DNA from: Nannocystis bainbridge
Lineage (GTDB): Bacteria; Myxococcota_A; Polyangia; Nannocystales; Nannocystaceae
Direction: 5' to 3'
Assembly (NCBI RefSeq): GCF_028368995.1
Contig: NZ_JAQNDL010000003.1
Location: 1,440,001-1,504,000 of the forward strand
Length of the DNA stretch: 64,000 bases
Made by a program: the position numbers and the translations under genes. Numbering within the stretch: the stretch's first letter is position 1; every line of letters begins with the position of its first letter. This document shows positions 1-64,000 of the stretch, one piece after another. Below the pieces are notes generated by a model. It worked only from the letters and a program-made list of their open reading frames with translations. It searched no databases and was not told the origin of the DNA.

Positions 1-91
1 CCCCGCTCCCCGGCAACCTGTCCCTCGGGACATCCGCTCCGCTCTTCGCCCCGCTCCCCGGCAACCTGTCCCTCGGGACATCCGCTCCGCT
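1..91. repeat. 43-bp direct repeat x2 (period 48), each copy holding TGTCCCTCGGGACA
   Basis: ccccgctccccggcaacctgtccctcgggacatccgctccgct at 1-43 and 49-91. Confidence 0.9.
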
Positions 92-113
92 GCCCGCCGC
101 CCTGCGCGCGCCC

Positions 114-2417
114 GTGCTCGCCGCCCCCGGCCCGCGCGTCCCCGCGACGCCCGGCGAGCCGGTGGTGAGCGGCGACGCCGTCCGCCTCCTGAGCGACGCC
201 GAGGACGCGATCAAGGCCGCCGAGCAGCTCACCGCCGCGGCCGCGACCCCGAGCCCCGCCGAGCTGGCCGAGCGCCTCGTCGCCGGCCAGGTCCAGCTCG
301 AGGGCGGCGACGCCGAGGGCGCCGCGATCATCTTCCTCGACCTGCTGGAGAACGCCCCCGGCACCCCCGCGGCCGTCCAGGCCCGCTACTACCTCGGCGA
401 GGCGCTGCTGCTCCTGCGCATGCGTCGGTGGGCCAGCGAGTGCTTCTCGCTGACCCTCGCCGACGCCAGCCCCGAGGCGCGCCGCCTCCATCAGCGCAGC
501 GTCGCCCGCCTGCTCGAGCTCGCCGCGCCCGCCCGCGCCCGCGGCCACGCGCGCAAGCAAGGCCTGTCGGTCATGCCCGAGCTGCGCGCGCGCATGCAGT
601 CGGTCGGCCTCGACGGCGACCGCGGCCCCGGCAGCGAGCTCAGCGCCCTCGACGTCACGCGCCTGCGCGGGTGGGTCGCCGCCGTCCCGACCGAGCAGCG
701 GATCCCCGAGCTGCGCTACGCCTGGGGCCGCTTCCTGTTCCTCTCGAAGGAGTACGCCGAGGCCCTGACCGAGCTCGACGGCATGGTCCCGGCGGACCTG
801 CCTCTCGGGACATCCGCGCCCGCCTGGCGCAGCCTGCTGCGCGCCGTGTACGTCGCCGGCGCCGCCGCGGCCGCGCTCGGCCGCCTCGACGACGCGATCG
901 TGCGCTTCGACCGGATCGTCGCCACGCGCACCCTGCCCGGCCCGGCGGAGCAGGAGATCCGCGAGCTGGCGTGGATGGCCCGCGCGCGCGTCTTCCACGA
1001 CCGCGGCGACTACGACGGCGCCCTGCTGTCGTACCGCTCGATCGGCCGCGCCTCGCCGCTGTACGCCTCGGCGCTCTACGAGATCGCGTGGACCCTGCTC
1101 CGCGCCGACCGCCACGAGGCCGCCCTCGCCGCGCTCGATCAGCTGCTGCGCGAGACCCCGCACAGCCCGGCCGCCGCCGAGGCCAAGTCGCTGCGCGGCA
1201 AGCTGCAGATCCGCCGCCGCAACTGGAAGGCCGCCGAGGACGAGTTCGCGGCCCTGCGCCGCCACTTCGACGACCAGTACAAGGCCGTCGCCCCGGCCCT
1301 CGCGGTCGGCAGCGACGCGCTCGACTACGTCGCCGCCGTCATCCGCTCCGACCCGCGCCACTTCGCCCTCGACACCCTCGTCCCGCGCGCCGCCATCCCG
1401 CTGGCGCGCAACCTGCCGCGCGCGGTGCAGGCCGAGCGCCTGGCCCGAGAGACAGGTGAGACCGAGCACCTGCTGCGCGAGACCCTGGCCCTGCTCGAGC
1501 GCATGGAGATCGCCGCGGCCTCGCCCGAGCGCGCGCTGCTGTTTACCGACCTCGGCGCCCACTGGCAGGCCCTCGACCGCGCCGGCCGCGACCTCGGCGA
1601 GGCCGGCGAGGCGCTGCTGCTCGCCGTCGGCCGCAGCCCGACCCGCGCCCTCACCGACATGCGCAGCGCCGTCGACGCTCTGTTCGAGCGGCCGTCCAAG
1701 CAGCTGCGCCGCGTCAGCGAAATGGGCGAACCGCTGGCCGACGCCCGCGCCGAGACCACCGCCGTGCGCGCGCGCCTCCACGGCCTCGAGTACATGCACC
1801 GCGAGTCGTCGCGCCGCGGCTCGCCCGACCCGTTCTTCCAGGAGGCCGCGGCCCTGCGCAGCGAGCTCGGCGCGCTCGAGGACAGCCTCGCCGACGCTCA
1901 CCGCGGCCTGCAGACCGCCCGCGCCACCCTGCGCTTCACCGACCCGCTGCCCGGCACCCGCCGCGACGCCATCGCCGCCCACAACCTCGTCGTCGGCAAC
2001 CTGTGGCCCGCCGGCGGCGGCGACGGCGTGCGCGAGCCGTGGCAACGTCGCCAGCGCCTCCTCATCCGCCTCGACGCCGCCCGCAAGCGCCTCGCCGCCG
2101 CCGCCCAGGCCCGCCTCGCCCGCGCCGTCGTCGTCCTGAAGGAAGAGCGCGACAACCTCGCCCGCTACCGCGACGAGCTCGAGGCCCTGCGCCCGCGCGC
2201 CGAGGTCACCGCCGCCGAGGCCGTGCACGCCGGCGTCCGCGACGTCGCCGCCGACCTCCGCTACTGGACGATCCGCGCCGACGTCGGCCTGCTCGACGTC
2301 GCCTGGGCCACCAAGGAAGCCGAGCTCGAGCAGGCCCGCGACCTCGAGCGCACCCGCGACCGCAGCCTCAAGAACATCGACCGCGCCGTCAACGAGGCGC
2401 TGGAGGACAGCGAGTGA
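114..2417 (+). CDS. TPR protein, GltC-like component of Agl-Glt cluster (frame is open to the window edge, so the true start may be upstream)
   Basis: Repeated helical TPR-like units (ARYYLGEALL, ALYEIAWTLL); TGA overlaps next GTG (GTGA at 2414-2417); first gene of glt-like run. Confidence 0.7.
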   Translation: MLAAPGPRVPATPGEPVVSGDAVRLLSDAEDAIKAAEQLTAAAATPSPAELAERLVAGQVQLEGGDAEGAAIIFLDLLENAPGTPAAVQARYYLGEALLLLRMRRWASECFSLTLADASPEARRLHQRSVARLLELAAPARARGHARKQGLSVMPELRARMQSVGLDGDRGPGSELSALDVTRLRGWVAAVPTEQRIPELRYAWGRFLFLSKEYAEALTELDGMVPADLPLGTSAPAWRSLLRAVYVAGAAAAALGRLDDAIVRFDRIVATRTLPGPAEQEIRELAWMARARVFHDRGDYDGALLSYRSIGRASPLYASALYEIAWTLLRADRHEAALAALDQLLRETPHSPAAAEAKSLRGKLQIRRRNWKAAEDEFAALRRHFDDQYKAVAPALAVGSDALDYVAAVIRSDPRHFALDTLVPRAAIPLARNLPRAVQAERLARETGETEHLLRETLALLERMEIAAASPERALLFTDLGAHWQALDRAGRDLGEAGEALLLAVGRSPTRALTDMRSAVDALFERPSKQLRRVSEMGEPLADARAETTAVRARLHGLEYMHRESSRRGSPDPFFQEAAALRSELGALEDSLADAHRGLQTARATLRFTDPLPGTRRDAIAAHNLVVGNLWPAGGGDGVREPWQRRQRLLIRLDAARKRLAAAAQARLARAVVVLKEERDNLARYRDELEALRPRAEVTAAEAVHAGVRDVAADLRYWTIRADVGLLDVAWATKEAELEQARDLERTRDRSLKNIDRAVNEALEDSE

Positions 2418-5905: not shown

Positions 5906-7662
5906 CTGTGCTTCGGGACATGTCCGTTCGCACCTGTCTCTTGGGACTTTTGCTCGTCCTCGCGTGCGACAAGCCGGCCGGCGAGTCGACCCCGCCGGGC
6001 AAGACCGCCGCCGCCGAGCCCGACGCCAATTGGAAGCCCGAGGCCGTCGAAAAGCCCGCCGAGCCCGCCGCGAGCGACAAGCCCGCGGCCAAGAAGAACC
6101 GCGACCGCGACCCCGAGGAGGAGCGGCGCAAGCTGGCGGCCTCGCACCAGCAGAGCCAGCAGGCCGGCCAGTCGCTGCGCCAGGGCGACCTCTCCCGCGC
6201 GCTCGACCTCTCGCGCGAGGCCCTGCGGATCCACGAGCAGAACGTCGACGCCATGCTCGTCATGGCCGAGGCCTTCCTCAAGCAGGGCAAGCACGAGCTG
6301 ACCCAGACCGTCACCAGCTCGGCGCTCGCCGTCGACGCCAAGGTCATCACCCCCGAGGAGACCTCGCGCGCCTACAACCTCAAGGGCTTCGCCTACCTCG
6401 CCGCCGACAAGCCGACGCTCGCCACCCAGTCGTTCCGCAAGGCCGCCGAGACCGACGCCGGCAACGCCACCGCGTGGAACAACCTCGGCGCGCAGTACCT
6501 CCGCACCGGCAACTTCAAGACCGCCAGCGAGTGCTTCATCTACGCGCTGAAGCTCGACCCCAACTTCTTCAAGGCCCACCTCAACCACGGCAGCGCGCTG
6601 CGGGCTCTGGGTGACGTCGTCGGCGCCGAGAAGGCCTACCAGGCCGCGCTGCGCCTGCGCGCCGACTACCCTGACGCCCACTTCGACCTCGGCGTGCTCT
6701 ACCTCGACGCACCCGAGTTCCCCGGCCTCGACATCACGACCCGCCTGCAGCGCGCGCTGATCCACTTCGGCAAGTACCGCGACCTCGCCCTCGCCAGCGG
6801 CGGCGGCGCGGCCAAGGGAGATCGCTTCACCGATCTCAAACGCGACACCGGCGCCAACAAACCCCGCACGGCCCCGGGCAAGGAGTCGGTCAGCGTCGCC
6901 CAGGCCGACCTCTACATCGACCTTGCCAAGAAAGGCCTCGAGCGCGAAAAGCGGCGCCTGGAGCGCGAGGGCAAGTCGCCACCTGTCTCGAAGGACAGCC
7001 CGGCCGCCCCCGGCACCGCGACCTCACCTGGCCCCAAGGACAGCCTGCCGGCCGCGGCCACGCCCGCCGCAGCCTCGACTGCACCTGGCCCCAAGGACAG
7101 CTCGCCGACGAAGCCCGGCGAGCCCCCGGCCGCGACCAATCCGACTCCGGGCAGCCCGGCCGGCTCGCCCAAGCCAGGCGCCTCCACCCCCGCCGCCAGC
7201 CCGCCGACCGCCGGCTCGCCCACGGCCGCCAAGCCCGGTGCCTCGGCCCCGCCGACGGCCACGACCCCGCCGCCCGCCGGCCCCGGCAGCTCCGGACCCG
7301 CCGCCACCCCTCCGGCCGCCAGTTCGCCCGCCACCACCCCGCCGGCCACCGCCAAGCCCGGCGCCCCGCCGCCGGCCACCGCCAAGCCCGGCACGCCGCC
7401 GCCGGCCACCGCCAAGCCTGGCACGCCGCCGCCCGGCAATGCGCCCCCGGCCACCCCGCCGGCCGCCAGCGCGCCCTCGGCCACCCCGCCACCGACCGCC
7501 AAGCCGGGCGGGACCGCTCCCCCGCCGACCGCGACCGCCAAGCCTGGCGAAGCCCCTCCCACGGCGAAGCCCGGGGCTCCGCCGCCGTCGGCCCAGAAGC
7601 CCGGAAGTGCGGCGTCGCCCACCCAGAAGCCGGGCGGCAATGGGGGCGCGAGCGCCCCATGA
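5902..7662 (+). CDS. TPR lipoprotein, GltE/AglT-like, with long Pro/Ala/Thr-rich C-terminal tail
   Basis: ATGA coupling at 5902-5905; lipobox LVLAC; TPRs (AWNNLGAQY, AHLNHG, AHFDLGVLY); ATAKPG repeats. Confidence 0.8.
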   Translation: MTVLRDMSVRTCLLGLLLVLACDKPAGESTPPGKTAAAEPDANWKPEAVEKPAEPAASDKPAAKKNRDRDPEEERRKLAASHQQSQQAGQSLRQGDLSRALDLSREALRIHEQNVDAMLVMAEAFLKQGKHELTQTVTSSALAVDAKVITPEETSRAYNLKGFAYLAADKPTLATQSFRKAAETDAGNATAWNNLGAQYLRTGNFKTASECFIYALKLDPNFFKAHLNHGSALRALGDVVGAEKAYQAALRLRADYPDAHFDLGVLYLDAPEFPGLDITTRLQRALIHFGKYRDLALASGGGAAKGDRFTDLKRDTGANKPRTAPGKESVSVAQADLYIDLAKKGLEREKRRLEREGKSPPVSKDSPAAPGTATSPGPKDSLPAAATPAAASTAPGPKDSSPTKPGEPPAATNPTPGSPAGSPKPGASTPAASPPTAGSPTAAKPGASAPPTATTPPPAGPGSSGPAATPPAASSPATTPPATAKPGAPPPATAKPGTPPPATAKPGTPPPGNAPPATPPAASAPSATPPPTAKPGGTAPPPTATAKPGEAPPTAKPGAPPPSAQKPGSAASPTQKPGGNGGASAP

Positions 7663-9128: not shown

Positions 9129-9232
9129 GGCGGTCCGGCTCGAAGCCTGTTCACGAGGACATGTCCTTCAAGACAGACCCAGGGCCGACCGCAGACCAAC
9201 TCTCCACCCGAGCGAAAGAAAGGAGGTGAACG

Positions 9233-12550: not shown

Positions 12551-12733
12551 CCTCGCTGCGTCGGACCTCGCCGTCGGTTTTTGGCCGGGCGGACTGGCCA
12601 CACGCGCGTCGGTCTGTCTCGTCGGGCGCTCCCCCGCAGCGGACAAGCCACACGGCGCTCGCGGTTCGGACTTGGCGCTCACAATTCTCGCCTCCGGGCT
12701 GAGATTCGCTAGGCTGTAGCCTCTCGCCTTCCC

Positions 12734-14140: not shown

Positions 14141-14158
14141 CGGCTGCGGCGTCTGCTC

Positions 14159-14770
14159 ATGCCCGCACCTCCACGCAGCGGCCTCTCCTGGCTCGGCTCC
14201 GGCCTCGTTCTCTTGCTGTCCTTCGGGACAGCTTGTGATCGCCCGGTCCGCACCCATGCCCCGGTGATCGCCCCGAGCGCCGGCCTGCGCCCGGGCGACG
14301 AGCTCGACATCCGCGTGTTCGACGAGGACCGCTTCAACGGCACCTACGCGGTCGCCGAGGACGGCACGATCGATTTCCCGATGGTCGGCGGCGTCGCGGT
14401 CACCGGCCTCACCAAGGACGAGGTCGCCCGTCACATCGAGACCAAGCTCGCCGATGGTTACCTCAACCATCCGCACGTCGTGGTCCAGATCAAGGAGCGC
14501 GGCAACCGGGAGATCAGCATCCTCGGCCAGGTCAACGAGGCCGGCTCGCTCGGCTGGCGCGACGGCCTCACGCTCGTGCAGGCCGTCTCGCTGGCTGGCG
14601 GCCTGACCCCCTTCGCCGCCCCTGCGCGCGTCAAGCTGACCCGCCGCACCGGCCGCGGCGAAGAGACCGTGACCTTCGAGATCTCCCTCTCGGCGATCGT
14701 CGACGGCCGCGCCGAGGACCTGGTCTTACGGCCAGGTGACATCGTGTTCGTGCCTGAGACCCGGATGTAA
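14159..14770 (+). CDS. Short OPX/Wza-family polysaccharide export lipoprotein (Poly_export + SLBB)
   Basis: Lipobox FGTAC; LRPGDELDIRVF; DGTIDFPMVG; AVSLAGGLTPFA; LRPGDIVFVP; no C-terminal OM helix. Confidence 0.9.
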   Translation: MPAPPRSGLSWLGSGLVLLLSFGTACDRPVRTHAPVIAPSAGLRPGDELDIRVFDEDRFNGTYAVAEDGTIDFPMVGGVAVTGLTKDEVARHIETKLADGYLNHPHVVVQIKERGNREISILGQVNEAGSLGWRDGLTLVQAVSLAGGLTPFAAPARVKLTRRTGRGEETVTFEISLSAIVDGRAEDLVLRPGDIVFVPETRM

Positions 14771-14780
14771 GCGAGGCCCC

Positions 14781-17698: not shown

Positions 17699-18154
17699 AT
17701 CGCACCGCCTGTCCCCAGGGACAGGCTCACCGCGAGCACCGTGCCCGCGCAACTCGGGGCGGGCTCGCCCGCGCGAACGACGAGCGCATCGTGCGTCGCG
17801 GCCTCCGAGCGAGCCGCCTCGGCCCGCGTGGCCATCGAGCGCATCCTGATCGCCCCGCATCGCGCAAGGCGCTCGCCTCGGCCCACGCAGACGCCGATCG
17901 CGTCGCTGCCCGTGACCCGCGAGCGCATCACGCGACCGCGCCACGCGCGTCGGCAGGGGATCGTCCTGCGCGCGCTCGCCCGACCCTCCATAGCGACTCG
18001 CCGAGCAGCACCCGCGCCAAGGCTCGCGCCCCCGCGAGCGAGCGAGCGCGCCAATCGTGCCCACGAGGCCGCCCCGGGCCAAGCGCCGCTCGCGTCCACG
18101 GCCACCTGCCCGGGCCTGAACCCGCGTCGCCGCAAAATGTGTCAAGCTCTCCGC

Positions 18155-18562: not shown

Positions 18563-18593
18563 TCTTCTTCCCCGTTCTTAAAAGGAAGAGACA

Positions 18594-18649
18594 TGTCCTC
18601 TGCGACATGCTTCCGAGGACATGCTCATCGGGACATGTCCTCGTGAGCA
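18594..18649. repeat. 14-bp-phased array of TGTCC-N4-GGACA-like units (4)
   Basis: tgtcctctgcgaca|tgcttccgaggaca|tgctcatcgggaca|tgtcctcgtgagca. Confidence 0.85.
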
Positions 18650-19335
18650 TGTCCTGATCGCGCCCCGACGAAGATCCCCGCCGCCAGCAGATCCTCCACC
18701 ACCTCGTCCGCGCCCCACGGCTCCGGCGCGCCGGCCAGCGCCGCCTCGATCGCCGCCAGCTCCTCGTCGATCGGCGTCGCCCGGCAGGCGTCGAGCTCGC
18801 CGTCTCGCCACACCACCGTCGCCGTCTCGCCGCGCACAGGCTCGGCCGCCCACGCCTCCTCGCCGAGCCAAGCCGCCACGTCCCACGACCCGCGCAGCAC
18901 CACCACCGACCTCGCCGCTCGCAGCGGCCCCTCCGCGCTGTCGCGCGGGTCATCCGGCCCGCTCTCGGCCCGCCACGTCGCCCACTCGAGCGCCGCCAGC
19001 TCCCCGAGCCACGCTGGCGACCCCGCCTGCCGGGCCACGAACTCGCCGAACCCCGCGGCGTTCTCGTTGAGCTCGAAGCTCTGCGCCGGCCGCTCGTGGA
19101 AATAAGCCTCGACCCACGCCGCCCACCGCGCCTCGCCCACGCGCACCATCACGGCCTCCCGCGTGCCCGCGTGGATGACGTCGATCGCGTCGCGCCGCAG
19201 CTTGCGGCACATCTCCGCGTACACCTGCAGCCCCTCGGCTGCCCCCTCGATCGCCAGCGACTTCGCCACCGTCGCCGCGTCCGCCGTCCCCTCGATCAGC
19301 GGCTGCAGCGTCGAGAACAAGCCCGCCAGCCGCAT
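18625..19335 (-). CDS. DUF2063 (HvfC/BufC-like) MNIO partner protein
   Basis: GLQVY...VGEARWAAWVEAYFHERP...GFGEFV...WLGELAALEWA; TGATG coupling to DUF692 gene. Confidence 0.8.
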   Translation of the reverse strand: MRLAGLFSTLQPLIEGTADAATVAKSLAIEGAAEGLQVYAEMCRKLRRDAIDVIHAGTREAVMVRVGEARWAAWVEAYFHERPAQSFELNENAAGFGEFVARQAGSPAWLGELAALEWATWRAESGPDDPRDSAEGPLRAARSVVVLRGSWDVAAWLGEEAWAAEPVRGETATVVWRDGELDACRATPIDEELAAIEAALAGAPEPWGADEVVEDLLAAGIFVGARSGHAHEDMSR

Positions 19336-21218: not shown

Positions 21219-21234
21219 ATCCATGCGTCCCATC

Positions 21235-21326
21235 GGTCTCCAAGGACATGTCTCGAGAGACACATCAATCGCTCACGCGTGAGCCCGACCGTAAACTCTG
21301 TCTCCAAGGACATGTCCCGAGAGACA
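21235..21326. repeat. Two doublets of the 14-bp palindrome (direct repeat, period 64)
   Basis: gtctccaaggacatgtcYcgagagaca at 21236 and 21300. Confidence 0.85.
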
Positions 21327-25615: not shown

Positions 25616-25705
25616 TGTCCCAAAGAACATGCTCCATGCGACATGAGACACAACTGTAGCGATGGCTCGCCAGGACATGTCCAACAGGACATGTCCAACA
25701 GGACA
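25616..25705. repeat. Two short 14-bp-phased arrays
   Basis: tgtcccaaagaaca|tgctccatgcgaca and tgtccaacaggaca|tgtccaacaggaca. Confidence 0.85.
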
Positions 25706-26659: not shown

Positions 26660-26827
26660 TTCCGCCGCCGAGTCATCACCTGTCTCTCCGGACATGGGAT
26701 CAACGCCGAGCCCGCCACGCATTCTCCGCCGTCGCGCCCCTGCTCCGTCGCTCGCGCGAAATCAAGCCCGCCCCGGCGCCCCCCGCGAGCGGGCCCGCCC
26801 CCGCGCGCTACGCTGCCACGCACCGCC

Positions 26828-27943: not shown

Positions 27944-28046
27944 CCTCCGCGCCTCATCATCCTGTCCTCGGAGACATGCTCGAAGCGACATATCATCATT
28001 GTCCCGAGCGCCATTTTAATAATGACCCTCTCCGGGGCTCCGCGTC

Positions 28047-32346: not shown

Positions 32347-32577
32347 GGTCCCTCGGGACATGTCCGTTCGCGCATGTCCTGAAGACCCTCGAGAGACGGA
32401 CCGCCACCGCATCGATCCGCCTCGGGACATGTCCGTTCGCGCATGTCCTGAAGACCCTCGAGAGACGGACCGCCGCGTCGTTTCACATGTCCCGAAGGAC
32501 ATCGACTTCGCCGCCGATCTCCGCGTGACCCGGCCGCTTTCCTCGCGCACCGCGATCACGACATGTCCTTCGAGACA
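32347..32577. repeat. 55-bp direct repeat x2 (period 69) plus 14-bp palindrome units
   Basis: cctcgggacatgtccgttcgcgcatgtcctgaagaccctcgagagacggaccgcc at 32351 and 32420; palindromes at 32488 and 32564. Confidence 0.88.
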
Positions 32578-40373: not shown

Positions 40374-41834
<1,461 letters not shown>

Positions 41835-44073: not shown

Positions 44074-44187
44074 CCCGGGCCAGGATGGCGCAGCCGCTCC
44101 GGACCGCCAGCCCGCCCGCCCAGCGCCCCCGCGGCCGCGCCTCGCCGCGACCGCCGTCAAACGGCGCAGGCCTCGCCACCCCGACCA

Positions 44188-44554
44188 CATGTCCCAGAGG
44201 ACATCTCACGGCCGCCGCCCCCGCCGCCCCGTCATATGTCCAGAAGGACATCTCACGCCCGCCGCCCGCGTCGCACTAAACATGTCCAAAAGGACATATC
44301 TCGACTCGCCACCCCGCGCCGCCCCTGAACATGTCCAAAAGGAAATCGCAGCTCGCCGCCCATGAACATGTCCCAAAGGACATGCAACGACTCGCCGCCC
44401 CGCATCGCGCTAAACATGTCTAGAAAGGACATATCACGGCTCGCCGCCCCGCGTCACCCCTAAACATGTCCAAAAGGACATATCATGGCTCACCGCCCGC
44501 GCCGTGCACCGGCCTCCCTCGCGCCTCGCCCATCCACATGTCTCGCTAGACATC
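44188..44554. repeat. Long-period (about 47 bp) degenerate tandem repeat, 8 units each with ACATGTCCAAAAGGACAT-like core
   Basis: Cores at 44190, 44237, 44283, 44332, 44369, 44417, 44467, 44539. Confidence 0.9.
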
Positions 44555-44727
44555 CCATCGCTCACGAACGAAATCGCCGACCCCGCGGCTCGCTCGTCCG
44601 CCCGCCATCCCCGCACGAATGCGAAGAGTCCGCCGCGCCGATTCGGCGCGTTATTGCCCGAGCGCAGCATGCGCAGCTTGGACCCACGAATCAACCTCGT
44701 TACCCTGCCCCTCGCGCGACCTCTCGC

Positions 44728-47700
44728 ATGACCGAGCCTCGCCCCCACCTCGTCGGCGCGCGCGTCCTCGTCCGCGGCGAGCGATGGCTCGTGCGCGCCG
44801 TCCGGGTCACCGCGGCCGGCGGCGCCGAGCTCCACGTCACCGGCCTCTCCTCGCTCGTGCAGGGCCGCGACGCCGTCTTCCTCGACGACCTCGACGACCT
44901 CGAGCTCCTTCACTCCGGGTCCACCGACCTCGTCTCCCCTCATTCTGCCCCCGACCCCCAGCAACTCGGCCCCTGCGACCCCGAAGTCCTGCTCGATCAG
45001 CTCGCCCTCGACCAGCCGCGACCGCGGATTCGCGGCGCTCGCGACATCATCGAGCGGCTCGCCGACGAATGCATCCACTGGCACCGCTGCGCCGATCCGT
45101 CCGTCATCGACGCCCCGCACCTCGCCGACCGCCTCGCCCGCGAATGCGTCGTCTACCTCTACCGCCTGCTGTTCCTGTTCTACGTCGAGGCTCGCGGCCC
45201 CAGGCTGCAGGCCGAGCCCTGGTTCACCGATGCCTATCGCCGCGCTTATTCGCTCGAGGCCCTGCGTGACCTCGAGCTCGTACCCCTCGACGCCCCCGAG
45301 GCTTGCGACGGCCACTACCTCGACGCCTCGCTGAAGCTCCTGTTTCGCCTGGCCCAGCGCGGCTACCCCGGCTTCGCCCTCGCTGGCCTTCACGGCCAGC
45401 TGTTCGACGATACGCGCATTCCCTTGCTCACCGCCGCCCGGCTGCGGAATCACGTCCTCCAGGACGTCCTGCGGCGATTGTCCTTATCGCGTCCGCTCGG
45501 CAAGCGCCCGCCTGCGCGGATCTCCTACGCCCACCTCGGCATCCACCAGCTCGGCGCCGTCTACGAGGGCTTGCTCAGCTACACCGGCTTCCTCGCCCGC
45601 GAGGACGTGCACGAGGTCCGCGCCGCTGCCGACCTCGCTGACGACGACGCCCGCACCTGGTTCGTCGCTCCCGCCCAGCTCACCGACGACCCCGGGCACG
45701 CGCTCGTGCGCGACGCAGCCGGCCTCCCCCTCCTCCACCCGCGCGGCAAATTCCTCTACCGCCTCGCCGGCCGCGAGCGTGAGAAGAGCGCCTCCTATTA
45801 CACCCCCGAGCTGCTCACTCGCTGCCTCACCCGCCACACCCTCGCCGAGCGGCTCCCCGGGGCCCGCGCCGACGACATCCTGCAATGGACAATCTGCGAG
45901 CCCGCCATGGGCTCCGGCGCCTTCCTCCACGAGGCCGTCGAACAGCTCGCCGACGCCTACCTCGCGCGCAAACAGGCCGAGCTCGGGCGCACGATCGCCG
46001 CTGACCGGTACGCCCACGAGCGACAGCGCGTCAAACATCACCTCGTCGCTCGCAACTGCTACGGCGTCGACCTCGACCCGCTCGCCGCCGAGCTCGGCCG
46101 CGTCTCGCTGTGGCTGAGCGTCCGCCACGAAGGCGCCGCCCCGCCGAACCTGTCCTTGCGGACAGCCGTCGGAAACAGCCTGATCGGCGCCCGCCGGGCC
46201 GTCCTTCGCGCCGACGACCTCGCCCGCGGCCTCCGCTGTGAACCGGCCGCCGTGCCCCTCCACGAACCGCGGCCCGCTGGCGCCGTCTATCACTTCCTCC
46301 TCGCCGACCCCGGCATGGCCGGCTTCGACGACGACCGCGCCCTCAAGTCGCTCGCGCCCGCGGCCGTCGCCCGCATCAAGTCCTGGCGCCGGCAGCAGCT
46401 CGCCGCCGACACCGCGCGCGAGCTGCCGCGGCTGGCGGCGATCTGCGCCGGCATCGACCTCTTGTGGCGCGCCCACCTCGACGAGCGCCGCGCCGCCCTC
46501 GCCGCCGTCCGCCAGCCGCTCGCGCTGTGGGGTCAAACCGACGAACCTTCGCCCCCGCTCGATCCCGTCGCCGCCTGCGAAGCCCTCGCCCGCCCCGACG
46601 CCCCCGGCCGCAAGCTCGCCGCGATCCTCGATTACTGGTGCGCCCTGTGGTTCTGGCCCATCGACCAGGTCGAAGCATTGCCCGACCGCGGGCAATGGCT
46701 CGCCGACGTCGAGCACCTCCTCGCCACCGACGACCTCGATCGCCCGGGCGATCGCCCCGCCCTCGCCGTCACCCGCCGCGTCGCCGGCGAGCAGCGCTTC
46801 TTTCACTGGGAGGTCACCTTCCCCGAGGTGTTCGCCGCCGGCGGCATGGACATCATCCTCGGCAACCCGCCGTGGACCAAGGTCGTGTGGGAGGAGACCG
46901 GCGTGCTCGCCGACCTGCACCCACGCCTCGGCCAGGGCCGCGCCGCCGCGACCCTCTCGCAGGCCGAGCGCCAGCGCCTGCTCGCCGACCCACGCTCGCG
47001 CGGCCGCTACGAGCGCGAGCTGACCACCAGCCTCGGCACCCGCAATTTCCTGAGCAGCCGGCTCTACCCGCTGCTCGGCGGCACCGCCACCAACCTCTAC
47101 AAGGCCTTCCTCGTGCGCGCCTGGTCGCTCGCCGGCCCGCGCGCCGTCGTCGGCCTGTTCCATCAGACAGGCGTGTTCGACGACCCCGCCGGCGGCCCGC
47201 TGCGCGCCGAGCTGCACCACCGCCTGCGCCTCGCCGCCCGCTTCCAGAACAAGCTCATGCTGTTCCCGGAGGTCCTTCACACGCGCCCCTACGCCTTCAC
47301 GATCTGCGGCGACCGCCGCGACGTCCCGCGATTCCGCTACGTCGCCAACCTGCTGCACCCGCGCACGCTCGACGACAGCCTCGCCCACGACGGCAGCGGC
47401 GACGTGCCCGGCCTCAAGGGCGACGACGGCGCCTGGGACCTCCGCGGCCATCGCGACCGCGTCGTCGACGTCGACGCGGCCGCTCTGGCCCTGTTCCGCG
47501 CCGTGTTCGACGCACCCGACACGCCCCTCGCCGAGGCTCGCCTGCCGATCGTGCACGCCGGCGCGCTGCTGCCGATCCTCCTCAAGTTCGCCGCCGGCCC
47601 GCGGCGCATGCTCGACCTCGCCGACGCCTATACCACCAGCGAACATTTCCACGAGACCTATCAGCAGCAGGACGGCACCATCCGCCGCGTCACCTGCCGG

Positions 47701-51176: not shown

Positions 51177-51338
51177 TGTCCCTTGCGACATGTCCTCGGG
51201 CGCAGACCACGGCTTCGCCCCTGTCTCTCAGGACATGTCCTGGGGGCGCCTTACGTCAACCGGCTCGCGGCCACAGCCTCGGCGCGCCGGATCATATGAC
51301 CTTTCGGACATGCCCATTCGCGCATGACTGAAAGGCCA
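51177..51338. repeat. Three short 14-bp-phased arrays downstream of tRNA
   Basis: Units starting at 51177/51191, 51222/51236, 51297/51311/51325. Confidence 0.8.
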
Positions 51339-51991: not shown

Positions 51992-53533
51992 ATGGAAATC
52001 GCAGCGAGCGTCACCCTCGGACTCTTGTTCCTGATCTCGGGCTTCGCGTCAGTGTTCCTGATGTTCAAGCTGTGGGGCTGGCCCGACGGACATCAACCGG
52101 GCATGGGCCAGGCGCCGCGGCACCTCGTGCGCCTCCACGACATCTTCAAGGTCATCTTCACCGCGCTCTACGTGGTGATGATGGCCGTGATGGTCCCGCG
52201 GCTGTGGAACTACCAGGTCGAGCTGCCGCCGCGCTCGGCCGTGCACGTCAGCCTCGGCTTCTTGCTGGGCGTGTTGCTGCTGGTCGAGCTCGCGTTCTAC
52301 AAGCTGTTCCGCCACCTGCAGTCCTGGGTCCCGGCGCTGGCCACCGCGACGCTCGGCTGCTCCGTGCTGCTGCTCGGCCTGTCGGTCCCGAGCGCCCTGC
52401 GCGAGTACGGCCTGGCGCGCGGCCAGGTCGGCGGCGGCGTCTACAGCGTCGAGAACCGGGCCCGCGTCGCCCGCCTGCTGCCGCAGGCCGAGATGCCCGC
52501 CGACGCCCCGCTGGCCGACCTCACCACCGTCGACGCCCTGCGCCACGGCCGGGAGATCCTCGCCACCAAGTGCGTCGTCTGTCACGACCTCAAGACCGTC
52601 CTCGTCCAGCCGCGCTCGCCCGCCGGCTGGTGGCGCACCGTCGAGCGCATGGCCGACAAGCCGATGTTCGAGGACCCGATGACCGAGCGCGAGCTCTACG
52701 ACGTCACCGCCTACCTGGTCGCCATCACCGGCGACCTGCAGAAATCGGCCCGCCAGCAGCGCGAGCAGAAGCTCAAGCAGCAGCAGGCGATCGCCCCCGT
52801 CGACCCGGCCGCCCCGGCGCCGACCTACGACGCCTCCGCCGCGCAAAAAGCGTTCGAGACCCGCTGCGCCGAGTGCCACGACCTCGCCGAGGTCGACAAG
52901 AAGCCGCCCACCTCCGCCCGCGAGGTCAAGGAGGTCATCGAGCGCATGGTCGCCGACAACGGCATGACCGCCCCCGCGGCCGAGCTCGACCTCTGCTACG
53001 CCTTCATGATCCGCAAGTACGCGCCGAACGAGGTCGCCACCGCGCCCGCGACTCTCGGCGCGGCCGTCGGCGCCGACGTCGCGGCCGCCGTGGCCGTGGC
53101 CAGCGCCCCGCCTGTCCCCGCGGACAGCAAGCCTGTCCCCGCGGACAGCAAGCCTGTCCCCGCGGACAGCCCGCCGCCCGCCGCCGATCCGGACGTCATC
53201 GTCGACGACGACACCCCGCCGGCCAAGGCCCCGACGCCCGCGCCCGCCGCCCCCGCCAAGCCCAAGCCGGCCCCCAAGGCGATCGACGCCCGCGGCCTCT
53301 ACGTCAAGCACTGCGCCGCCTGCCACGACGTCAGCGGCAAGGGCAAGCCGGGCCTCAAGAGCAAGGGCATCCCGGACATGACCGACAAGAACTGGCAGAA
53401 GAAGAACGGCAAGGGCGCGGTCGCCAAGGCGATCAAGGTCGGCATCCCCGGCACGATGATGAAAGCCTTCGCCGCCAAGCTGAAGCCCGAAGAGGTCGAC
53501 GCCGTCGCCGCCTTCGTCAAGAAGATGCGCTGA
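51992..53533 (+). CDS. Membrane-anchored triheme c-type cytochrome
   Basis: N-terminal TM helices with His residues; CVVCH, CAECH, CAACH; PVPADSK x3 linker. Confidence 0.85.
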   Translation: MEIAASVTLGLLFLISGFASVFLMFKLWGWPDGHQPGMGQAPRHLVRLHDIFKVIFTALYVVMMAVMVPRLWNYQVELPPRSAVHVSLGFLLGVLLLVELAFYKLFRHLQSWVPALATATLGCSVLLLGLSVPSALREYGLARGQVGGGVYSVENRARVARLLPQAEMPADAPLADLTTVDALRHGREILATKCVVCHDLKTVLVQPRSPAGWWRTVERMADKPMFEDPMTERELYDVTAYLVAITGDLQKSARQQREQKLKQQQAIAPVDPAAPAPTYDASAAQKAFETRCAECHDLAEVDKKPPTSAREVKEVIERMVADNGMTAPAAELDLCYAFMIRKYAPNEVATAPATLGAAVGADVAAAVAVASAPPVPADSKPVPADSKPVPADSPPPAADPDVIVDDDTPPAKAPTPAPAAPAKPKPAPKAIDARGLYVKHCAACHDVSGKGKPGLKSKGIPDMTDKNWQKKNGKGAVAKAIKVGIPGTMMKAFAAKLKPEEVDAVAAFVKKMR

Positions 53534-58067: not shown

Positions 58068-58178
58068 GCGCCGCACCGCGACCTGTCCTCAAGGACAGGC
58101 CGCCTCGAAGCGCGAGCGCGCCAGGCCGCACCGCCCGGCTCTACCACGCGACGATGGGCGCGACGGAGCCCTGCGCGC

Positions 58179-59534: not shown

Positions 59535-59618
59535 TGCCCCGCAGGACATGCCCCCTGGGACATGCCCTATCCGACCTATCCCATCGGACATGCCCCCGAG
59601 GCCATGTCCACGGCGCAC
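59535..59618. repeat. 14-bp-phased array (6 units)
   Basis: tgccccgcaggaca|tgccccctgggaca|tgccctatccgacc|tatcccatcggaca|tgcccccgaggcca|tgtccacggcgcac. Confidence 0.85.
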
Positions 59619-60445: not shown

Positions 60446-60676
60446 CTCCGGTCAAGATGCATCAACCGTCCACGCAAGTAAACGCGTGGGCCCGGGCCCA
60501 CGCATCACGCGAGCGCCGACCTCCGCCAGCGCACGCCCCGCACGCGCAGACGCGGCTGTGCGCCCCCGACCGCGTGTCGTCTCCGGCTCCAGGACGCGGC
60601 CTCATGACCCTGTCCCAAGGGACATGCACCAGGCGGACGATCGCGTCCACTTGTCCGCGGCGCCCGCCGCGGCCGA

Positions 60677-61981: not shown

Positions 61982-62000
61982 CGCGCCCGCCAAGCACACA

Positions 62001-62084
62001 TGCCCGTTCAGACATGCCCTTTCGAGCATGCTCCATCAGGCATGTCCCAAAGCACATGCCCCTTCGAGCATGCCCTCCGGGCCA
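62001..62084. repeat. 14-bp-phased array (6 units)
   Basis: tgcccgttcagaca|tgccctttcgagca|tgctccatcaggca|tgtcccaaagcaca|tgccccttcgagca|tgccctccgggcca. Confidence 0.85.
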
Positions 62085-62100
62085 TCCTCTACCTATCCGC

Positions 62101-64000
62101 TCACACGATCCACATCGCTTCGACGCGCTGGGCGACCGTGCGACGGACCTTGAGGAAGCGGGGGTCGGCGCGGACCGCCGCCAGCGCCGGGCACAGGTCG
62201 AGCCACTCGAGGTCGATCAGGCGGGACTCGCAGGCGCGCTCGATCAGCGCCAGGCAGTCGTCCTGGAACCCGCGCAGGCCCATGATCTCGGCGGTCACCT
62301 GGCACGTCGAGGTCAGCATGCGCGGGCTCGGACCGTTCTTGATCACGTCCTCGAGACCGACCCACAGCCGCTCGCGGTCGTAGTCGCCGAGCAGCCCGTG
62401 GGCCGAGAAGCTGACCGCGTTCTCGCGCTCGCCCTGGGCCATCGACCGCGAGCGCTCGAGGCACGCGCGCACCGTGTCCAGATCGCCGAACCACCCGGCC
62501 ACGCGCACGCGGGTGATGAGCGCCTGGAACTGGAAGTGCGGCTGGTGCTCGAGCTTGTCGAGGAACTCGTGCAGCGCCCCGAGGTCGCGGCGGAGCGCGT
62601 GCACCCGGGCCACGTGGGCGTACGCCTGCAGCAGGCTCGGCTCGAGCGCCGCCGCCAGGCGGGCGCGGGTCACCCCGTCCTCGATGTTGCCCGCCTCGCA
62701 CTGCAGCTGCGACAGGTACTCGTGGGCGTGGGCGTAGGTCGGCGCCAGATCGAGCGCCCGGACGAACGCCTTGACCGCGTCGCGCCACTCGCCGACCTGC
62801 ACCTCGTACATCCCGCGGGCGAACTGCGACTCGGCCAGGTCCGGCGCCAGCTCGAGCGTGCGCTCGACCGCCGCGCGCGACAGCGCCGCGAAGTCGCGCG
62901 GCGAGCCCACGCGGGTCGCGAAGAACCACGCGCGCGTGCACGCCACCGCGTAGCTGGCGAGCGCCGGGCGGAACATCGGCGCCGCCTGCAGCGCCTCCTC
63001 GAGCAGCTCGATCGCCCCGTCGGGCCCGACCACGTGCCCGCCGATGATCTTGCGGCGGGCCCGGCGGTACAGCGCGATCGCCTCGGGCGTGCCGGTGCGG
63101 CGGTGCGCGTACGTCGTCAGCTCGACGCGCAGGCCCTCGGCGATCTTCTTGCCGACGATCTCCTGCGCGTCGAGCAAGTCCTCGGCGCGGGCCTCGAACC
63201 GCTCGTTGTAGACCTGCAGCCCGGTCTGGACCTCGACCAGCCGGGCCTGCACGCGCAGCAGCGTCGGCGTCACCTGCAGCGTCGCGTCGACCACCATCGC
63301 CGCGCCCAGCTCCGTGCCGACCGCCCGCGGGTCGCGAGCGTCGCGGTAGCGGGCCGTCGCCCCGCTGCCGAGCACCCGCATCCCGCCGGTCTGCTGCAGC
63401 ACGTCGATCGCCGCGTCAGTCAGCGCCTCGCCCAGGTACGCCGTCGCCGGCGGCCCCTGGTAGCGCAACGGCAGCACCGCCACCATCGGCGCCTGCAGCG
63501 TCGCGGTCGGCGTCGTCGCCCCGGCCGGGTGACGCGTCGAGGCCAGCGTCGAAAGCGGCCCCGCCCCGCTCGAGATCGTCTCGCCGCTGCCGACCAGCCA
63601 CCCGCGCAGCCGCTCGGCGATCGCCGCCGCGCTGGCCGGCCGATGACCTGACTCTTGGGACAGGCACTGCCGCACCAGCTCCGCCAGCGCCTCGGGCGCG
63701 TCGGGCCGCACGGACAGCAGCTCGAGCGGCCGCTCCGTCAGGCGGGCCAGCGCCGCCGCGAACGCCGTGTCGCCGGCGAACGGCAGCCGCCCCGTCAGCA
63801 TCTCGAACAGCACCAGCCCGACCGCGTAGAGGTCGGTGCGCGCGTCGACCGGCGCCCCCGCCACCTGCTCCGGCGCCATGTACACCGGCGTCCCGAGCAG
63901 CCCCTGCGTGTGCTGGCCGTCGTCGAGCGGCCGCGCGATGCCGAAGTCGGTGAGCACCACCCGGCCCTCGACCTCGAGCAGCACGTTGGCCGGCTTGAGG
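62101..64000 (-). CDS. Ser/Thr protein kinase with TolB_N-like and TPR domains (5' end outside window)
   Basis: LKPANV; TDFGIAR; GTPVYMAPEQ; DLYAVG; TPR C-terminus. Confidence 0.92.
   Translation of the reverse strand, partial: LKPANVLLEVEGRVVLTDFGIARPLDDGQHTQGLLGTPVYMAPEQVAGAPVDARTDLYAVGLVLFEMLTGRLPFAGDTAFAAALARLTERPLELLSVRPDAPEALAELVRQCLSQESGHRPASAAAIAERLRGWLVGSGETISSGAGPLSTLASTRHPAGATTPTATLQAPMVAVLPLRYQGPPATAYLGEALTDAAIDVLQQTGGMRVLGSGATARYRDARDPRAVGTELGAAMVVDATLQVTPTLLRVQARLVEVQTGLQVYNERFEARAEDLLDAQEIVGKKIAEGLRVELTTYAHRRTGTPEAIALYRRARRKIIGGHVVGPDGAIELLEEALQAAPMFRPALASYAVACTRAWFFATRVGSPRDFAALSRAAVERTLELAPDLAESQFARGMYEVQVGEWRDAVKAFVRALDLAPTYAHAHEYLSQLQCEAGNIEDGVTRARLAAALEPSLLQAYAHVARVHALRRDLGALHEFLDKLEHQPHFQFQALITRVRVAGWFGDLDTVRACLERSRSMAQGERENAVSFSAHGLLGDYDRERLWVGLEDVIKNGPSPRMLTSTCQVTAEIMGLRGFQDDCLALIERACESRLIDLEWLDLCPALAAVRADPRFLKVRRTVAQRVEAMWIV

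What the first reader, a model, noticed from the sequence alone, without database searches (positions are those of the whole stretch)
19..63662. Highly over-represented 14-bp palindrome TGTCY-N4-RGACA across the whole window
Seen (manual count, a minimum): 19 exact TGTCC-N4-GGACA sites at 19, 67, 14217, 17710, 25678, 25692, 32488, 33722, 44190, 44237, 44283, 44369, 44467, 46151, 53113, 53134, 53155, 58084 and 60611. Another 11 TGTCY-N4-RGACA sites lie at 6984, 9162, 21249, 21299, 21313, 26681, 27963, 32564, 40662, 44539 and 51222, plus many near matches. A rough base-composition estimate (about 72% GC assumed) predicts far fewer than one exact site in 64 kb, although some copies arise from local tandem duplication. 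The central 4 nt vary freely while arm spacing is fixed, as expected for a dimeric DNA-binding protein site. Inference: a lineage-specific chromosome-wide signal analogous to HIP1, matS, Noc/SlmA sites or uptake sequences. It matches none of the consensus sequences I know.
Basis: partly seen in the sequence, partly recalled or inferred. Interest (0 to 1): 0.85.

Follow-up and report, generated by a model that had tools for sequence, protein, structure and literature searches.

The report
Clade-specific DNA dyad marking gene ends
A short two-armed DNA word, TGTCC-4 bases-GGACA, occurs thousands of times in this myxobacterial genome, mostly in phased rows just after genes end, and looks like the docking site of an unknown paired DNA-binding protein.

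Summary
All 19 exact and 30 degenerate sites lie at the given coordinates, against 0.04 and 0.17 expected. The 11-Mb genome holds 1987 exact sites at spacing 4, against 0-19 at every other spacing from 0 to 15, and 6245 with up to one mismatch. Coding DNA has 790 exact sites, against 17-27 after synonymous-codon shuffling.

The full element is a roughly 20-bp dyad, ACATGTCC-N4-GGACATGT. It often stands in 14-bp phased rows and peaks 0-75 nt after stop codons.

The two arms vary independently, without compensatory change. The element is symmetric with respect to transcription and has no T tract. Orthologous sites change by substitution, not insertion, and the arms are better conserved than their flanks. 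No RAYT transposase gene was found.

The element is abundant in 3 of 17 genera of the family searched.

Best reading: the double-stranded DNA site of an unidentified dimeric protein acting at gene ends. The protein and the function are inferred, not shown. Five literature searches found no description of it.

The parts
19..32 (.). exact site, inside a CDS (TPR protein); one of two copies in a 48-bp coding repeat that encodes NLSLGTS
67..80 (.). exact site, second copy of the 48-bp coding repeat
6984..6997 (.). TGTCT/GGACA variant inside a CDS, in the disordered tail of a TPR protein (PVSKDS)
9148..9175 (.). two abutting units (14-bp phase) 20 nt after the stop codon of gene 8499-9128; present at the same place in 4 of 4 relatives
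14217..14230 (.). exact site in the signal-peptide codons of the Poly_export gene 14159-14770; kept with 0-1 mismatch in 4 of 4 relatives
17710..17723 (.). exact site 12 nt after the stop codon of the carboxyltransferase gene 16169-17698. G010 has 2 and G001 has 5 units (up to 1 mismatch) after the same gene; G005 and G007 show only more degenerate copies
18590..18655 (.). 14-bp phased array, 4.8 units, consensus GACATGTCCTCGG
21249..21326 (.). three TGTCY/RGACA units in the convergent gap 21219-21342, two of them abutting
25616..25705 (.). array containing two identical abutting exact units (25678 and 25692) and a one-mismatch unit at 25616
26681..26694 (.). variant site 22 nt after the stop codon of gene 26330-26659; 1-2 units with up to 1 mismatch after the same gene in 4 of 4 relatives
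27963..27976 (.). variant site 20 nt after the stop codon of gene 26828-27943; 3 of 4 relatives have units with up to 1 mismatch in the same gap, G001 only more degenerate copies
32347..32577 (.). intergenic cluster: a duplicated block with GGACATGTCC joints, an exact site at 32488 and a variant at 32564. The variant at 32564 is positionally kept in 4 of 4 relatives aligned, but in more degenerate form (3' arm GAGCCA/AAGCCA)
33722..33735 (.). exact site inside a CDS (PVPEDS). There is no indel in 5 relatives: two are identical, the others differ by 1-2 substitutions
40662..40675 (.). variant site inside the AAA-lid domain of a sigma-54 activator gene; exact in two relatives
44174..44560 (.). 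47-49-bp tandem array carrying eight units (44190, 44237, 44283, 44332, 44369, an N5 variant near 44415, 44467 and 44539), in a divergent gap upstream of an Eco57I-like methylase gene
46151..46164 (.). exact site inside the methylase CDS; the four relatives differ at 4-5 of the 10 arm positions, without any indel
51177..51310 (.). three one-mismatch units (51177, 51222, 51297) downstream of the tRNA gene 51031-51104
53110..53170 (.). three exact sites in a perfect 21-bp coding repeat (PVPADSK x3) in a linker of a cytochrome c protein
58084..58097 (.). exact site 17 nt after the stop codon of the BolA-like gene, in a convergent gap
59535..59590 (.). three one-mismatch units (59535, 59549, 59577), the first two in 14-bp phase
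60611..60624 (.). exact site in the divergent gap 60446-60748; one-mismatch ortholog in G010
61999..62075 (.). 14-bp phased array, 5.5 units, consensus CATGCCCCTTCGAG (degenerate units)

Best explanation
TGTCC-N4-GGACA is the core of a roughly 20-bp dyad, (R)C(A/C)TGTCC-YYRR-GGACA(T/G)G(Y), most often ACATGTCC-N4-GGACATGT. I read it as a site recognised on double-stranded DNA, one half-site per subunit, by a homodimeric protein that is specific to this myxobacterial genus and two sister genera.

About 6000 sites (up to one mismatch) are kept by selection. Roughly 40% of them lie 0-75 nt after a stop codon, often as rows of 2-6 units in exact 14-bp phase, where neighbouring units share a CATG. 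That arrangement would let several dimers load side by side.

The role I think most likely (inferred) is that the bound rows mark and insulate the ends of transcription units, stopping read-through or the spread of supercoils. Canonical hairpin-plus-T terminators are scarce in this 71.5% GC genome. Single sites elsewhere, including inside genes, would add to a genome-wide binding landscape.

Shown here: the enrichment, the geometry, the independence of the half-sites, the symmetry, the placement, the conservation and the clade limits. Inferred: that a protein binds the site, and what it does there.
For: Spacing is fixed. Genome-wide, N4 gives 1987 sites against 0-19 at the other 15 spacings. 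With up to one mismatch there are 6245 sites, against 101-330 at N2, N3, N5, N6 and N7.

The dyad, not the pentamer, is the unit. 4205 of 12351 TGTCC pentamers have a GGACA arm (up to 1 mismatch) exactly 4 nt downstream, against 50-179 at control spacings. The pentamer itself is no commoner than permuted pentamers.

The half-sites vary independently, in a way a hairpin would not tolerate. Arm position 2 is almost invariant, with 13-25 single-arm transition variants. The central arm position 3 varies on one arm in 1889 sites, each variant class 7- to 150-fold (mostly 15-40-fold) over its spacing controls. Compensatory doubles are not favoured: TGACC/GGTCA 25 against 3-26, and TGGCC/GGCCA 78 against 51-77. 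Flank positions -1/+1 show little or no covariation: none in 493 isolated sites (284 observed against 291 expected), and a modest excess over all 1987 sites (1066 against 899).

The element is symmetric with respect to transcription. In 1257 sites oriented by the upstream gene, 36 of 37 mirrored positions do not differ at p<1e-4, and there is no T tract. Loops show no clear orientation.

The signal is at DNA level even inside genes: 790 CDS sites against 17-27 after synonymous shuffles.

Conservation points to selection rather than insertion. Of 81 aligned ortholog positions from 4 relatives, 51 keep the site, 28 differ by substitution and 2 by indel. Over the 80 pairs that also align across the flanks, arm identity is 0.89, against 0.79 for flanks and 0.74 for the loop, with the dip at arm position 3. 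After the same genes, copies recur in relatives although the surrounding intergenic DNA no longer aligns.

Placement. Density is 4.4 per kb (co-directional) and 10 per kb (convergent) at 20-40 nt past stop codons, against 0.1-0.6 per kb within 100 nt of starts in divergent gaps. 2205 of 5748 gene ends with at least 40 nt of downstream gap carry a site, while only 402 have a hairpin-plus-T4 terminator by my crude scan.

Phased rows. Neighbour distances of 14, 28 and 42 bp occur 485, 274 and 165 times. CATG-N10, N24 and N38-CATG occur 3736, 2073 and 1586 times, against 62-476 at other spacings.

Clade limits. ATGTC-N6-GACAT occurs 38-1458 times in 11 of 11 genomes of the genus, 98-207 in 5 of 5 of genus g2, 37-286 in 7 of 7 of g4, and 0-20 in all 50 genomes of the other 14 genera. 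The preferred base pair at arm position 5 shifts in g2, as expected if a reader protein co-evolves with its site.
Against: No protein was identified. A search for sites in promoter-side gaps gave 28 genes and no convincing DNA-binding candidate.

If bound rows block RNA polymerase, the roughly 35-fold excess of sites inside genes is awkward. It needs the extra assumption that single sites are harmless.

Only 9 of 102 tRNA genes have a site within 150 nt downstream, fewer than for protein genes.

The fall in density with distance from the stop codon partly depends on my crude GC3-based gene caller, which may miss small genes in long gaps.

There is a slight excess of G.U-compatible over C.A variants in transcript orientation, 228 against 184, which leaves a little room for an RNA role.

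The conservation test rests on about 21 window sites times 4 related, non-independent genomes.
Confidence: 0.42

Rival explanations
1. A REP- or MITE-like selfish repeat: a very small non-autonomous palindromic element copied by an unidentified transposase or by hairpin-promoted slippage. On this view it accumulates where insertions are tolerated, namely gene 3' ends, convergent gaps and disordered protein linkers.
For: It is high-copy, clade-specific and palindromic, and is enriched after stop codons and in convergent gaps, as REPs are. Copy number after the same gene ranges from none to 5 units (up to 1 mismatch) among relatives. Local tandem duplication is evident, with 14-, 21-, 36- and 47-bp repeats. 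Intragenic clusters sit in low-complexity linkers. Regions of lower GC content have fewer copies.
Against: No Y1/RAYT transposase was found in the genome, while the same search rang in 6 of 14 control genomes. In alignable DNA only 2 of 81 ortholog differences are indels. A site can arise inside a structured domain without any change in length. Arm positions are unequally constrained and better conserved than flanks. There is no head or tail asymmetry. The unit is 14-20 bp, too short for known transposition substrates (recalled).
Confidence: 0.18
2. A molecular-drive signal of the uptake-sequence or HIP1 type. The word would be over-represented because a DNA-uptake, recombination, methylation or repair system favours DNA that carries it. 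Its place after stop codons would then merely reflect where it costs least.
For: It is genome-wide, on all contigs at 10-108 sites per 100 kb. It is present and conserved inside ORFs through substitutions. Density is about 1 per 1.8 kb with up to one mismatch. It is specific to the genus and its sister genera and depleted where GC content is atypical. HIP1 shows the same over-representation and conservation within and between ORFs (abstract). A preprint listing reports that HIP1 aids transformation (listing only).
Against: The exact 14-bp phased rows and the peak 20-40 nt after stop codons, measured per available nucleotide, are not expected from drive alone. Known uptake sequences are oriented and non-palindromic (recalled). 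The commonest variants are the transition products TGTCT and AGACA (407 and 461), so they are not removed by a repair bias. Only 8 viral contigs carry even a single 20-bp dyad, so there is no sign of mimicry by phages.
Confidence: 0.14
3. An RNA (or single-stranded DNA) stem-loop: UGUCC-N4-GGACA hairpins in 3' untranslated regions that end transcripts or protect them from 3' exonucleases.
For: It lies just after stop codons and in convergent gaps. It has a 4-nt loop, with TTCG and its complement among the commonest loops. Where a hairpin-plus-T terminator is present, the unit often sits 0-40 nt before the T run (89 of 293 site-to-T-run distances). G.U-compatible variants slightly outnumber C.A variants, 228 against 184.
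Against: There is no compensatory covariation at any arm position. Central-pair mismatches are as common as perfect stems: 1889 against 1987. The sequence, not the pairing, is what is conserved. There is no orientation with respect to the transcript and no T tract. A 35-fold excess occurs inside coding DNA. No Rfam family matches.
Confidence: 0.1
4. A preferred action site of an enzyme that cuts or holds DNA with 4-bp dyad geometry, for example a strong site for gyrase or topoisomerase IV that relieves the positive supercoils piling up at gene ends.
For: The arms are symmetric around exactly 4 central bases, and type IIA topoisomerases cut with a 4-bp stagger (recalled). The highest density is in convergent gaps. 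REP/BIME clusters at gene ends in E. coli are gyrase sites (recalled).
Against: Gyrase is universal and only weakly sequence-selective (recalled), so a sharp motif of 10 specified bases confined to 3 of 17 genera is not expected. The 14-bp phase does not match DNA wrapping periodicity (recalled).
Confidence: 0.07

Closest known systems
HIP1 (GCGATCGC) of cyanobacteria
   Same: It is a short palindrome, 15- to 300-fold over-represented, at about one per gene, found and conserved both within and between ORFs, specific to a lineage, and of unresolved function (abstract of PMC5861425). Here there are 1987 exact sites against 0-19 at other spacings and 790 CDS sites against 17-27 codon-aware, and the arms are conserved.
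   Different: HIP1 is a contiguous 8-mer tied to orphan methyltransferases (abstract of PMC4390886, seen as a listing), and that paper found no gene-level role. The present element is a bipartite dyad of about 20 bp with a 4-bp centre, stands in 14-bp phased rows, and is strongly biased to the first 75 nt after stop codons.
REP / REPIN elements with RAYT transposases (enterobacteria, Pseudomonas)
   Same: Hundreds to thousands of palindromic repeats, clade-specific, lying after genes and between convergent genes, and clustered (abstracts listed).
   Different: No RAYT gene is present. The unit is half the size and perfectly symmetric. Rows are head-to-tail in 14-bp phase rather than inverted doublets. 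About 40% of exact sites are inside genes and arise by substitution.
Operator dyads of dimeric regulators, and tandem palindromic boxes such as the MetJ met-boxes (recalled)
   Same: Fixed spacing, dyad symmetry, independently varying half-sites, and abutting palindromic units that would allow cooperative binding.
   Different: There are thousands of sites rather than tens, they lie at gene ends rather than promoters (the lowest density is near start codons in divergent gaps), and no cognate protein is known.
Uptake sequences (DUS of Neisseria, USS of Pasteurellaceae) (recalled)
   Same: They are genus-level words at about one per kb, found inside genes and, as inverted pairs, after genes.
   Different: They are oriented non-palindromic 9-12-mers. 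No phased arrays are known for them. Uptake bias is untested here.
p53 response-element half-site RRRCWWGYYY
   Same: The joint between two abutting units, GGACATGTCC (956 copies), is letter for letter a consensus p53 decamer. The papers listed deal with such sites (listing only).
   Different: This is a coincidence of sequence as far as can be told. No P53-domain match was found in the genome, but the control search rang in none of the 14 control genomes, so that test is uninformative. Only 33 of 956 decamers stand without partner arms, so the N4 dyad, not the decamer, is the unit.

Membership tests
REP/REPIN-RAYT system | High-copy imperfect palindrome, mainly extragenic, at gene 3' ends | tested here: inconclusive
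   High copy number and a 3'-end bias are met. However, 790 of 1987 exact sites lie inside predicted CDS.
REP/REPIN-RAYT system | A RAYT (Y1 HUH transposase, Pfam PF01797) gene in the same genome | tested here: not met
   There were 0 matches in G000 (90.5% complete); the same search rang in 6 of 14 control genomes.
REP/REPIN-RAYT system | Asymmetric unit with a conserved head tetranucleotide; REPIN = two inverted REPs with a spacer (definition recalled, and from abstracts listed) | tested here: not met
   The unit is self-symmetric at 36 of 37 mirrored positions. Rows are in 14-bp head-to-tail phase.
Highly iterated palindromes (HIP1-like) | Palindromic word many-fold over codon-aware expectation | tested here: met
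   790 CDS sites against 17-27 in 5 synonymous shuffles; 1987 sites against 0-19 at other spacings.
Highly iterated palindromes (HIP1-like) | Sites conserved between genomes, within and between ORFs | tested here: met
   51 of 81 aligned ortholog positions keep the site. Arm identity is 0.89 against 0.79 for flanks. Copies recur after the same genes in most relatives examined. The sample is small and the genomes are related.
Highly iterated palindromes (HIP1-like) | Word is the target of cognate orphan DNA methyltransferases | not testable with these tools
   No methylome data are available. An Eco57I-like methylase gene lies beside an array in the window, but nothing links it to the motif.
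Intrinsic (Rho-independent) terminator | Stable stem kept by compensatory change, followed by a T/U tract on the transcript strand | tested here: not met
   There is no T tract and no strand asymmetry and no compensatory covariation. A minority of units do precede a T run.
Dimeric DNA-binding protein operator | Fixed half-site spacing, dyad symmetry, half-sites varying independently | tested here: met
Dimeric DNA-binding protein operator | A cognate protein that binds the site | not testable with these tools
   No candidate was found. This needs a pull-down, ChIP or full phylogenetic profiling.
matS / Noc / SlmA-type chromosome-domain sites | Tens of sites confined to a chromosome region (recalled) | tested here: not met
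   There are 6245 sites (up to 1 mismatch) on all five contigs, at 10-108 per 100 kb.
DNA uptake sequences | Preferential uptake of DNA that carries the word | not testable with these tools
Palindromy and the phased rows differ from known DUS/USS (recalled).

The most novel reading that the evidence does not exclude
These myxobacteria mark about 40% of their gene ends with phased rows of a sequence-specific DNA dyad, on which a dedicated clade-specific dimeric protein assembles. That would be a DNA-encoded, protein-read 'end of gene' signal acting as a roadblock terminator or supercoil insulator, and it would replace the scarce hairpin-plus-U terminators. Bacteria are not known to use such a genome-wide system.
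Probability: 0.2. Interest if true: 0.9.

Novelty: new variant of a known kind. Interest (0 to 1): 0.72.

Why it matters
If a protein reads this dyad, it would be one of the most abundant sequence-specific protein-DNA interactions in any bacterium. It would sit in the largest bacterial genomes known (11-13 Mb in this genus) and at a position, gene ends, where no general DNA-level signal is known in bacteria.

It offers a tractable entry point. The target is a defined 20-bp bait, and the clade distribution is sharp: all 23 genomes of three genera carry the motif in excess, against all 50 genomes of the other 14 genera at background. That should single out the gene.

Practically, the motif helps annotate gene ends in these GC-rich genomes, where ORF calling is hard. 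It flags native as opposed to atypical-composition DNA. It may also matter for expressing the large natural-product gene clusters of these organisms.

It also shows how a DNA-level signal can shape proteins: the VPxD(S/M) repeat linkers are the motif read in frame.

Tried and rejected

RNA evidence: no RNA holder was listed for window 12001-22000. The six listed runs held only 0.08-0.13 of the words, and as contigs.

Known RNA families: Rfam gave only a tRNA at 51031-51104.

Transposases and other protein leads. Y1_Tnp/RAYT is absent from the genome. LAGLIDADG_3 is absent, with the control ringing in 6 of 14 genomes. The P53 domain gave no match, but the control rang nowhere, so that test is uninformative.

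Autoregulation lead: 28 genes have at least 2 sites in a divergent upstream gap, and none is an obvious DNA-binding protein. They were not annotated further.

Phage mimicry: the 20-bp dyad occurs once each in 8 viral contigs of the collection.

Organism name: the search for related loci returned only myxobacterial MAGs (76-79% identity) and Archangium (73%) as nearest named records, and it warns that the window's own relatives may be left out. 'Myxococcota' is therefore supported.

Literature. Five searches found no description of this motif: Sorangium + palindromic + repeat + intergenic; TGTCC + GGACA + palindrome; 'TGTCC-N4-GGACA'; Sorangium cellulosum + terminator + stem-loop; myxobacteria + REP. 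Passages of PMC3696898 and PMC3372372 were read and mention no such repeat. Supplements are closed, and the So ce56 genome paper was not seen, so a mention there cannot be excluded.

Peptide-level explanation: rejected. Synonymous shuffles that keep every protein sequence lose about 97% of the CDS sites.

Codon periodicity artefact: rejected. The other high-count dyads (the CGCCG and CGTCG types) peak at every third spacing, whereas this one peaks at a single spacing.

The gene calls are my own crude GC3 log-odds caller: 7832 genes covering 81-83% of the genome. All coding and intergenic counts inherit its errors; for example, site 14217 was first called intergenic.

Full report
OBSERVATION. 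There are 19 exact TGTCC-N4-GGACA sites, with 0.04 expected from dinucleotide shuffles, and 30 TGTCY-N4-RGACA sites, with 0.17 expected. The window is C2:1440001-1504000 of an 11.05-Mb, five-contig, 71.5% GC genome.

Genome-wide the dyad occurs 1987 times at spacing 4 and 0-19 times at each other spacing from 0 to 15. Allowing one arm mismatch gives 6245 sites, against 101-330 at spacings 2, 3, 5, 6 and 7. An unbiased count of all 5-mer/reverse-complement pairs at spacings 0-15 puts TGTCC-N4-GGACA first. It is followed by ACATG-N10-CATGT, ATGTC-N6-GACAT and CATGT-N8-ACATG, which are facets of one longer dyad, ACATGTCC-N4-GGACATGT. The remaining high counts are codon-periodicity effects that recur at every third spacing.

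Predicted coding DNA holds 790 exact sites, against 17-27 in five shuffles that permute synonymous codons within each gene.

ANATOMY. Flanks extend the symmetry: R, C, A/C before the core and T/G, G, Y after it. The central four bases are biased towards YYRR rather than free.

One third of all TGTCC pentamers (4205 of 12351) have a GGACA arm, with up to one mismatch, exactly 4 nt downstream, against 50-179 at control spacings. The pentamer alone is not unusually common.

Units often abut. GGACATGTCC joints occur 956 times. Neighbour distances of 14, 28, 42, 56 and 70 bp occur 485, 274, 165, 58 and 28 times. CATG recurs at N10, N24 and N38 3736, 2073 and 1586 times, against 62-476 at other spacings. 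Only 33 of 956 joints lack both partner arms, whereas 493 of 1987 N4 units stand alone, so the N4 dyad is the primary unit.

In the window, Tandem Repeats Finder shows 14-bp rows at 18590-18655, 25671-25705 and 61999-62075. It also shows a 47-49-bp array with eight units at 44174-44560 and a perfect 21-bp coding repeat at 53110-53170.

PLACEMENT. I used my own GC3-based gene caller (7832 genes; crude, so these counts are approximate). By that caller, 1184 exact sites are intergenic, 790 are coding and 13 straddle an edge. Convergent gaps hold 456 sites in 311 kb and divergent gaps 109 in 562 kb.

Sites with up to one mismatch pile up 0-75 nt after stop codons. Per available nucleotide the density is 4.4 per kb (co-directional) and 10 per kb (convergent) at 20-40 nt past the stop. 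It falls to about 1 per kb beyond 200 nt and is 0.1-0.6 per kb within 100 nt of start codons in divergent gaps.

Of 5748 gene ends with at least 40 nt of downstream gap, 2205 carry a site. Only 402 have a hairpin (dG of -12 or lower) plus a T4 run by my simple scan. In 64 genes the TGA stop codon itself forms the first three bases of a TGACC variant. Only 9 of 102 tRNA genes have a site within 150 nt downstream.

Intragenic clusters lie in low-complexity linkers, where the unit is read in frame as (A/P)VP(A/E)D(S/M) or, in another frame, (L/M)SxGT. Single sites also occur in folded domains, for example in the AAA-lid of a sigma-54 activator.

STRUCTURE OR SEQUENCE? Three tests speak against a hairpin, whether RNA or cruciform, and for reading of double-stranded DNA by half-sites.

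(i) There is no compensatory change. At arm position 3, the centre of a 5-bp stem, 1889 sites differ on one arm only. Each variant class is 7- to 150-fold (mostly 15-40-fold) above its N2, N3, N5 and N6 controls. Compensatory doubles are at or near background. Arm position 2 almost never varies. Neutral decay of a repeat would not give such unequal positions.

(ii) Flank positions -1 and +1 show little or no covariation. There is none in 493 isolated sites, with Watson-Crick pairs at 284 observed against 291 expected. Over all 1987 sites there is a modest excess, 1066 against 899.

(iii) Oriented by the upstream gene, 1257 sites are mirror-symmetric at 36 of 37 positions out to 30 nt, with no T tract, and the loops show no clear polarity.

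The only hint of an RNA-level effect is a small excess of G.U-compatible over C.A variants, 228 against 184.

EVOLUTION. The exact dyad occurs 114-2090 times in all 10 other genomes of the genus, 87 and 161 times in two other genera, and 0-8 times in the remaining 28 genomes searched.

Across 73 genomes of the family, ATGTC-N6-GACAT is abundant in the genus (11 of 11), in g2 (5 of 5; 98-207) and in g4 (7 of 7; 37-286). It is at 0-20 in all 50 genomes of the other 14 genera. In g2 the TGTCT/AGACA form is 0.6-0.75 as common as TGTCC/GGACA, against 0.06 in this genome. Three loci from g2 and g4 show units in intergenic DNA, in one case 5 nt after a stop codon (anecdotal).

The window is syntenic with four relatives at about 80-95% identity, and the alignments break exactly at the motif-bearing gaps.

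Where DNA aligns, 51 of 81 orthologous positions keep the site, 28 differ by substitutions and 2 by indels. Over the 80 pairs that also align across the flanks, arm identity is 0.89, against 0.79 for flanks and 0.74 for the central four bases, with the dip at arm position 3. The site in the methylase gene at 46151 differs from all four relatives at 4-5 of the 10 arm positions, without any change in length.

After the same genes, most relatives carry units, but in different numbers. After the carboxyltransferase gene G010 has 2 and G001 has 5 units with up to one mismatch, while G005 and G007 show only more degenerate copies.

Sites are fewer in 100-kb bins of lower GC content, with r = 0.57. 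So sites are gained and lost mainly by substitution and by local duplication, and they are held by selection.

WHAT IT IS NOT. It is not a REP/RAYT system, because there is no Y1 transposase gene although the control search rang and the unit has no asymmetric head. It is not a canonical terminator. It is not a known RNA family. It is not a codon or peptide artefact. It is not a regional chromosome-domain signal, because it is on all contigs at 10-108 sites per 100 kb. It is not enriched in viral contigs.

MOST LIKELY MECHANISM. The geometry, the symmetry, the independent half-sites and the position-specific constraint (TG-n-CC) are what base-specific reading by a homodimer on duplex DNA produces. 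The 14-bp phase (42 bp, about four helical turns, per three units; my inference) would let dimers line up along a row.

Because rows start within a few nucleotides of stop codons, and hairpin-plus-T terminators are scarce, I think the bound rows delimit transcription units as roadblocks or as topological insulators. I hold the first step, a protein site on double-stranded DNA, at about 0.6, and the full statement at about 0.4. The excess of sites inside genes and the weak association with tRNA genes count against a pure terminator role.

Rivals are set out with their evidence: a REP-like selfish repeat (0.18), an uptake or repair-type drive as proposed for HIP1 (0.14), an RNA hairpin (0.10) and a topoisomerase-type enzyme site (0.07).

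NOVELTY. Five literature searches and passages of two papers gave no description of this element. Supplements and the first published genome paper of the probable genus could not be seen.

The nearest known kinds are HIP1 (abstract read) and REP/REPIN (abstracts listed). This element differs from both in being a spaced dyad, phased in 14-bp rows and tied to gene ends. I therefore rate it a new variant of a known kind, with a 0.2 chance that it is a genuinely new type of gene-end signal.

LIMITS. No protein was identified and no RNA data were available. Gene calls are crude. The conservation statistics come from one 64-kb window and four related genomes. The organism's name is withheld: Myxococcota is supported, and the genus is inferred only.

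Noticed in passing
window 44174-44560: A 47-49-bp tandem array carries eight motif units, one of them with an N5 centre. It lies in a divergent gap between a 297-aa gene of no Pfam family (43180-44073, minus strand) and a 1332-aa Eco57I-like N6-methylase gene (44728-48726). Divergent gaps are otherwise the most motif-poor DNA. In three relatives (G005, G007, G001) several kb of other DNA lie at this point.
   Followed up: partly
window 35177-40361: A stretch of about 5 kb holds a 1341-aa CheB-CheR-PAS-histidine kinase-receiver fusion gene (36009-40034, minus strand). It has no alignment in any of the four syntenic relatives and contains no motif site, so it is probably a strain-specific insertion.
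   Followed up: partly
window 51977-53533: A cytochrome c protein has a linker containing three perfect 21-bp repeats (PVPADSK), each of which is an exact motif site. The relatives keep the repeats with different central bases.
   Followed up: yes
whole genome (G000): Hairpin-plus-T4 terminators are rare, at 402 of 5748 gene ends by a simple scan. In 64 genes the TGA stop codon is itself the first three bases of a TGACC-N4-GGACA variant unit.
   Followed up: partly
G011, G055 (genus g2); G013, G059, G061 (genus g4): The sister genera carry the same dyad in fewer copies. Genus g2 uses TGTCT/AGACA nearly as often as TGTCC/GGACA, and many of the listed examples have A/T-rich centres, which suggests the motif drifts between genera.
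   Followed up: partly
window 32843-33050: An 18/36-bp repeat region inside gene 32735-33325 matches many places (70-80% identity) in all five relatives searched. It is a widespread low-complexity coding repeat unrelated to the dyad.
   Followed up: no
window 51031-51104: A tRNA gene (Rfam RF00005, 72.6 bits) is followed within 75-200 nt by three one-mismatch motif units.
   Followed up: partly
whole genome (G000), 100-kb bins: Bins with the fewest sites (10-17, against a median of 48-72) have a lower GC content (0.686-0.707, against a median of 0.716), and four of the five have fewer genes (44-65, against a median of 71). They may be acquired islands or clusters of giant genes.
   Followed up: no
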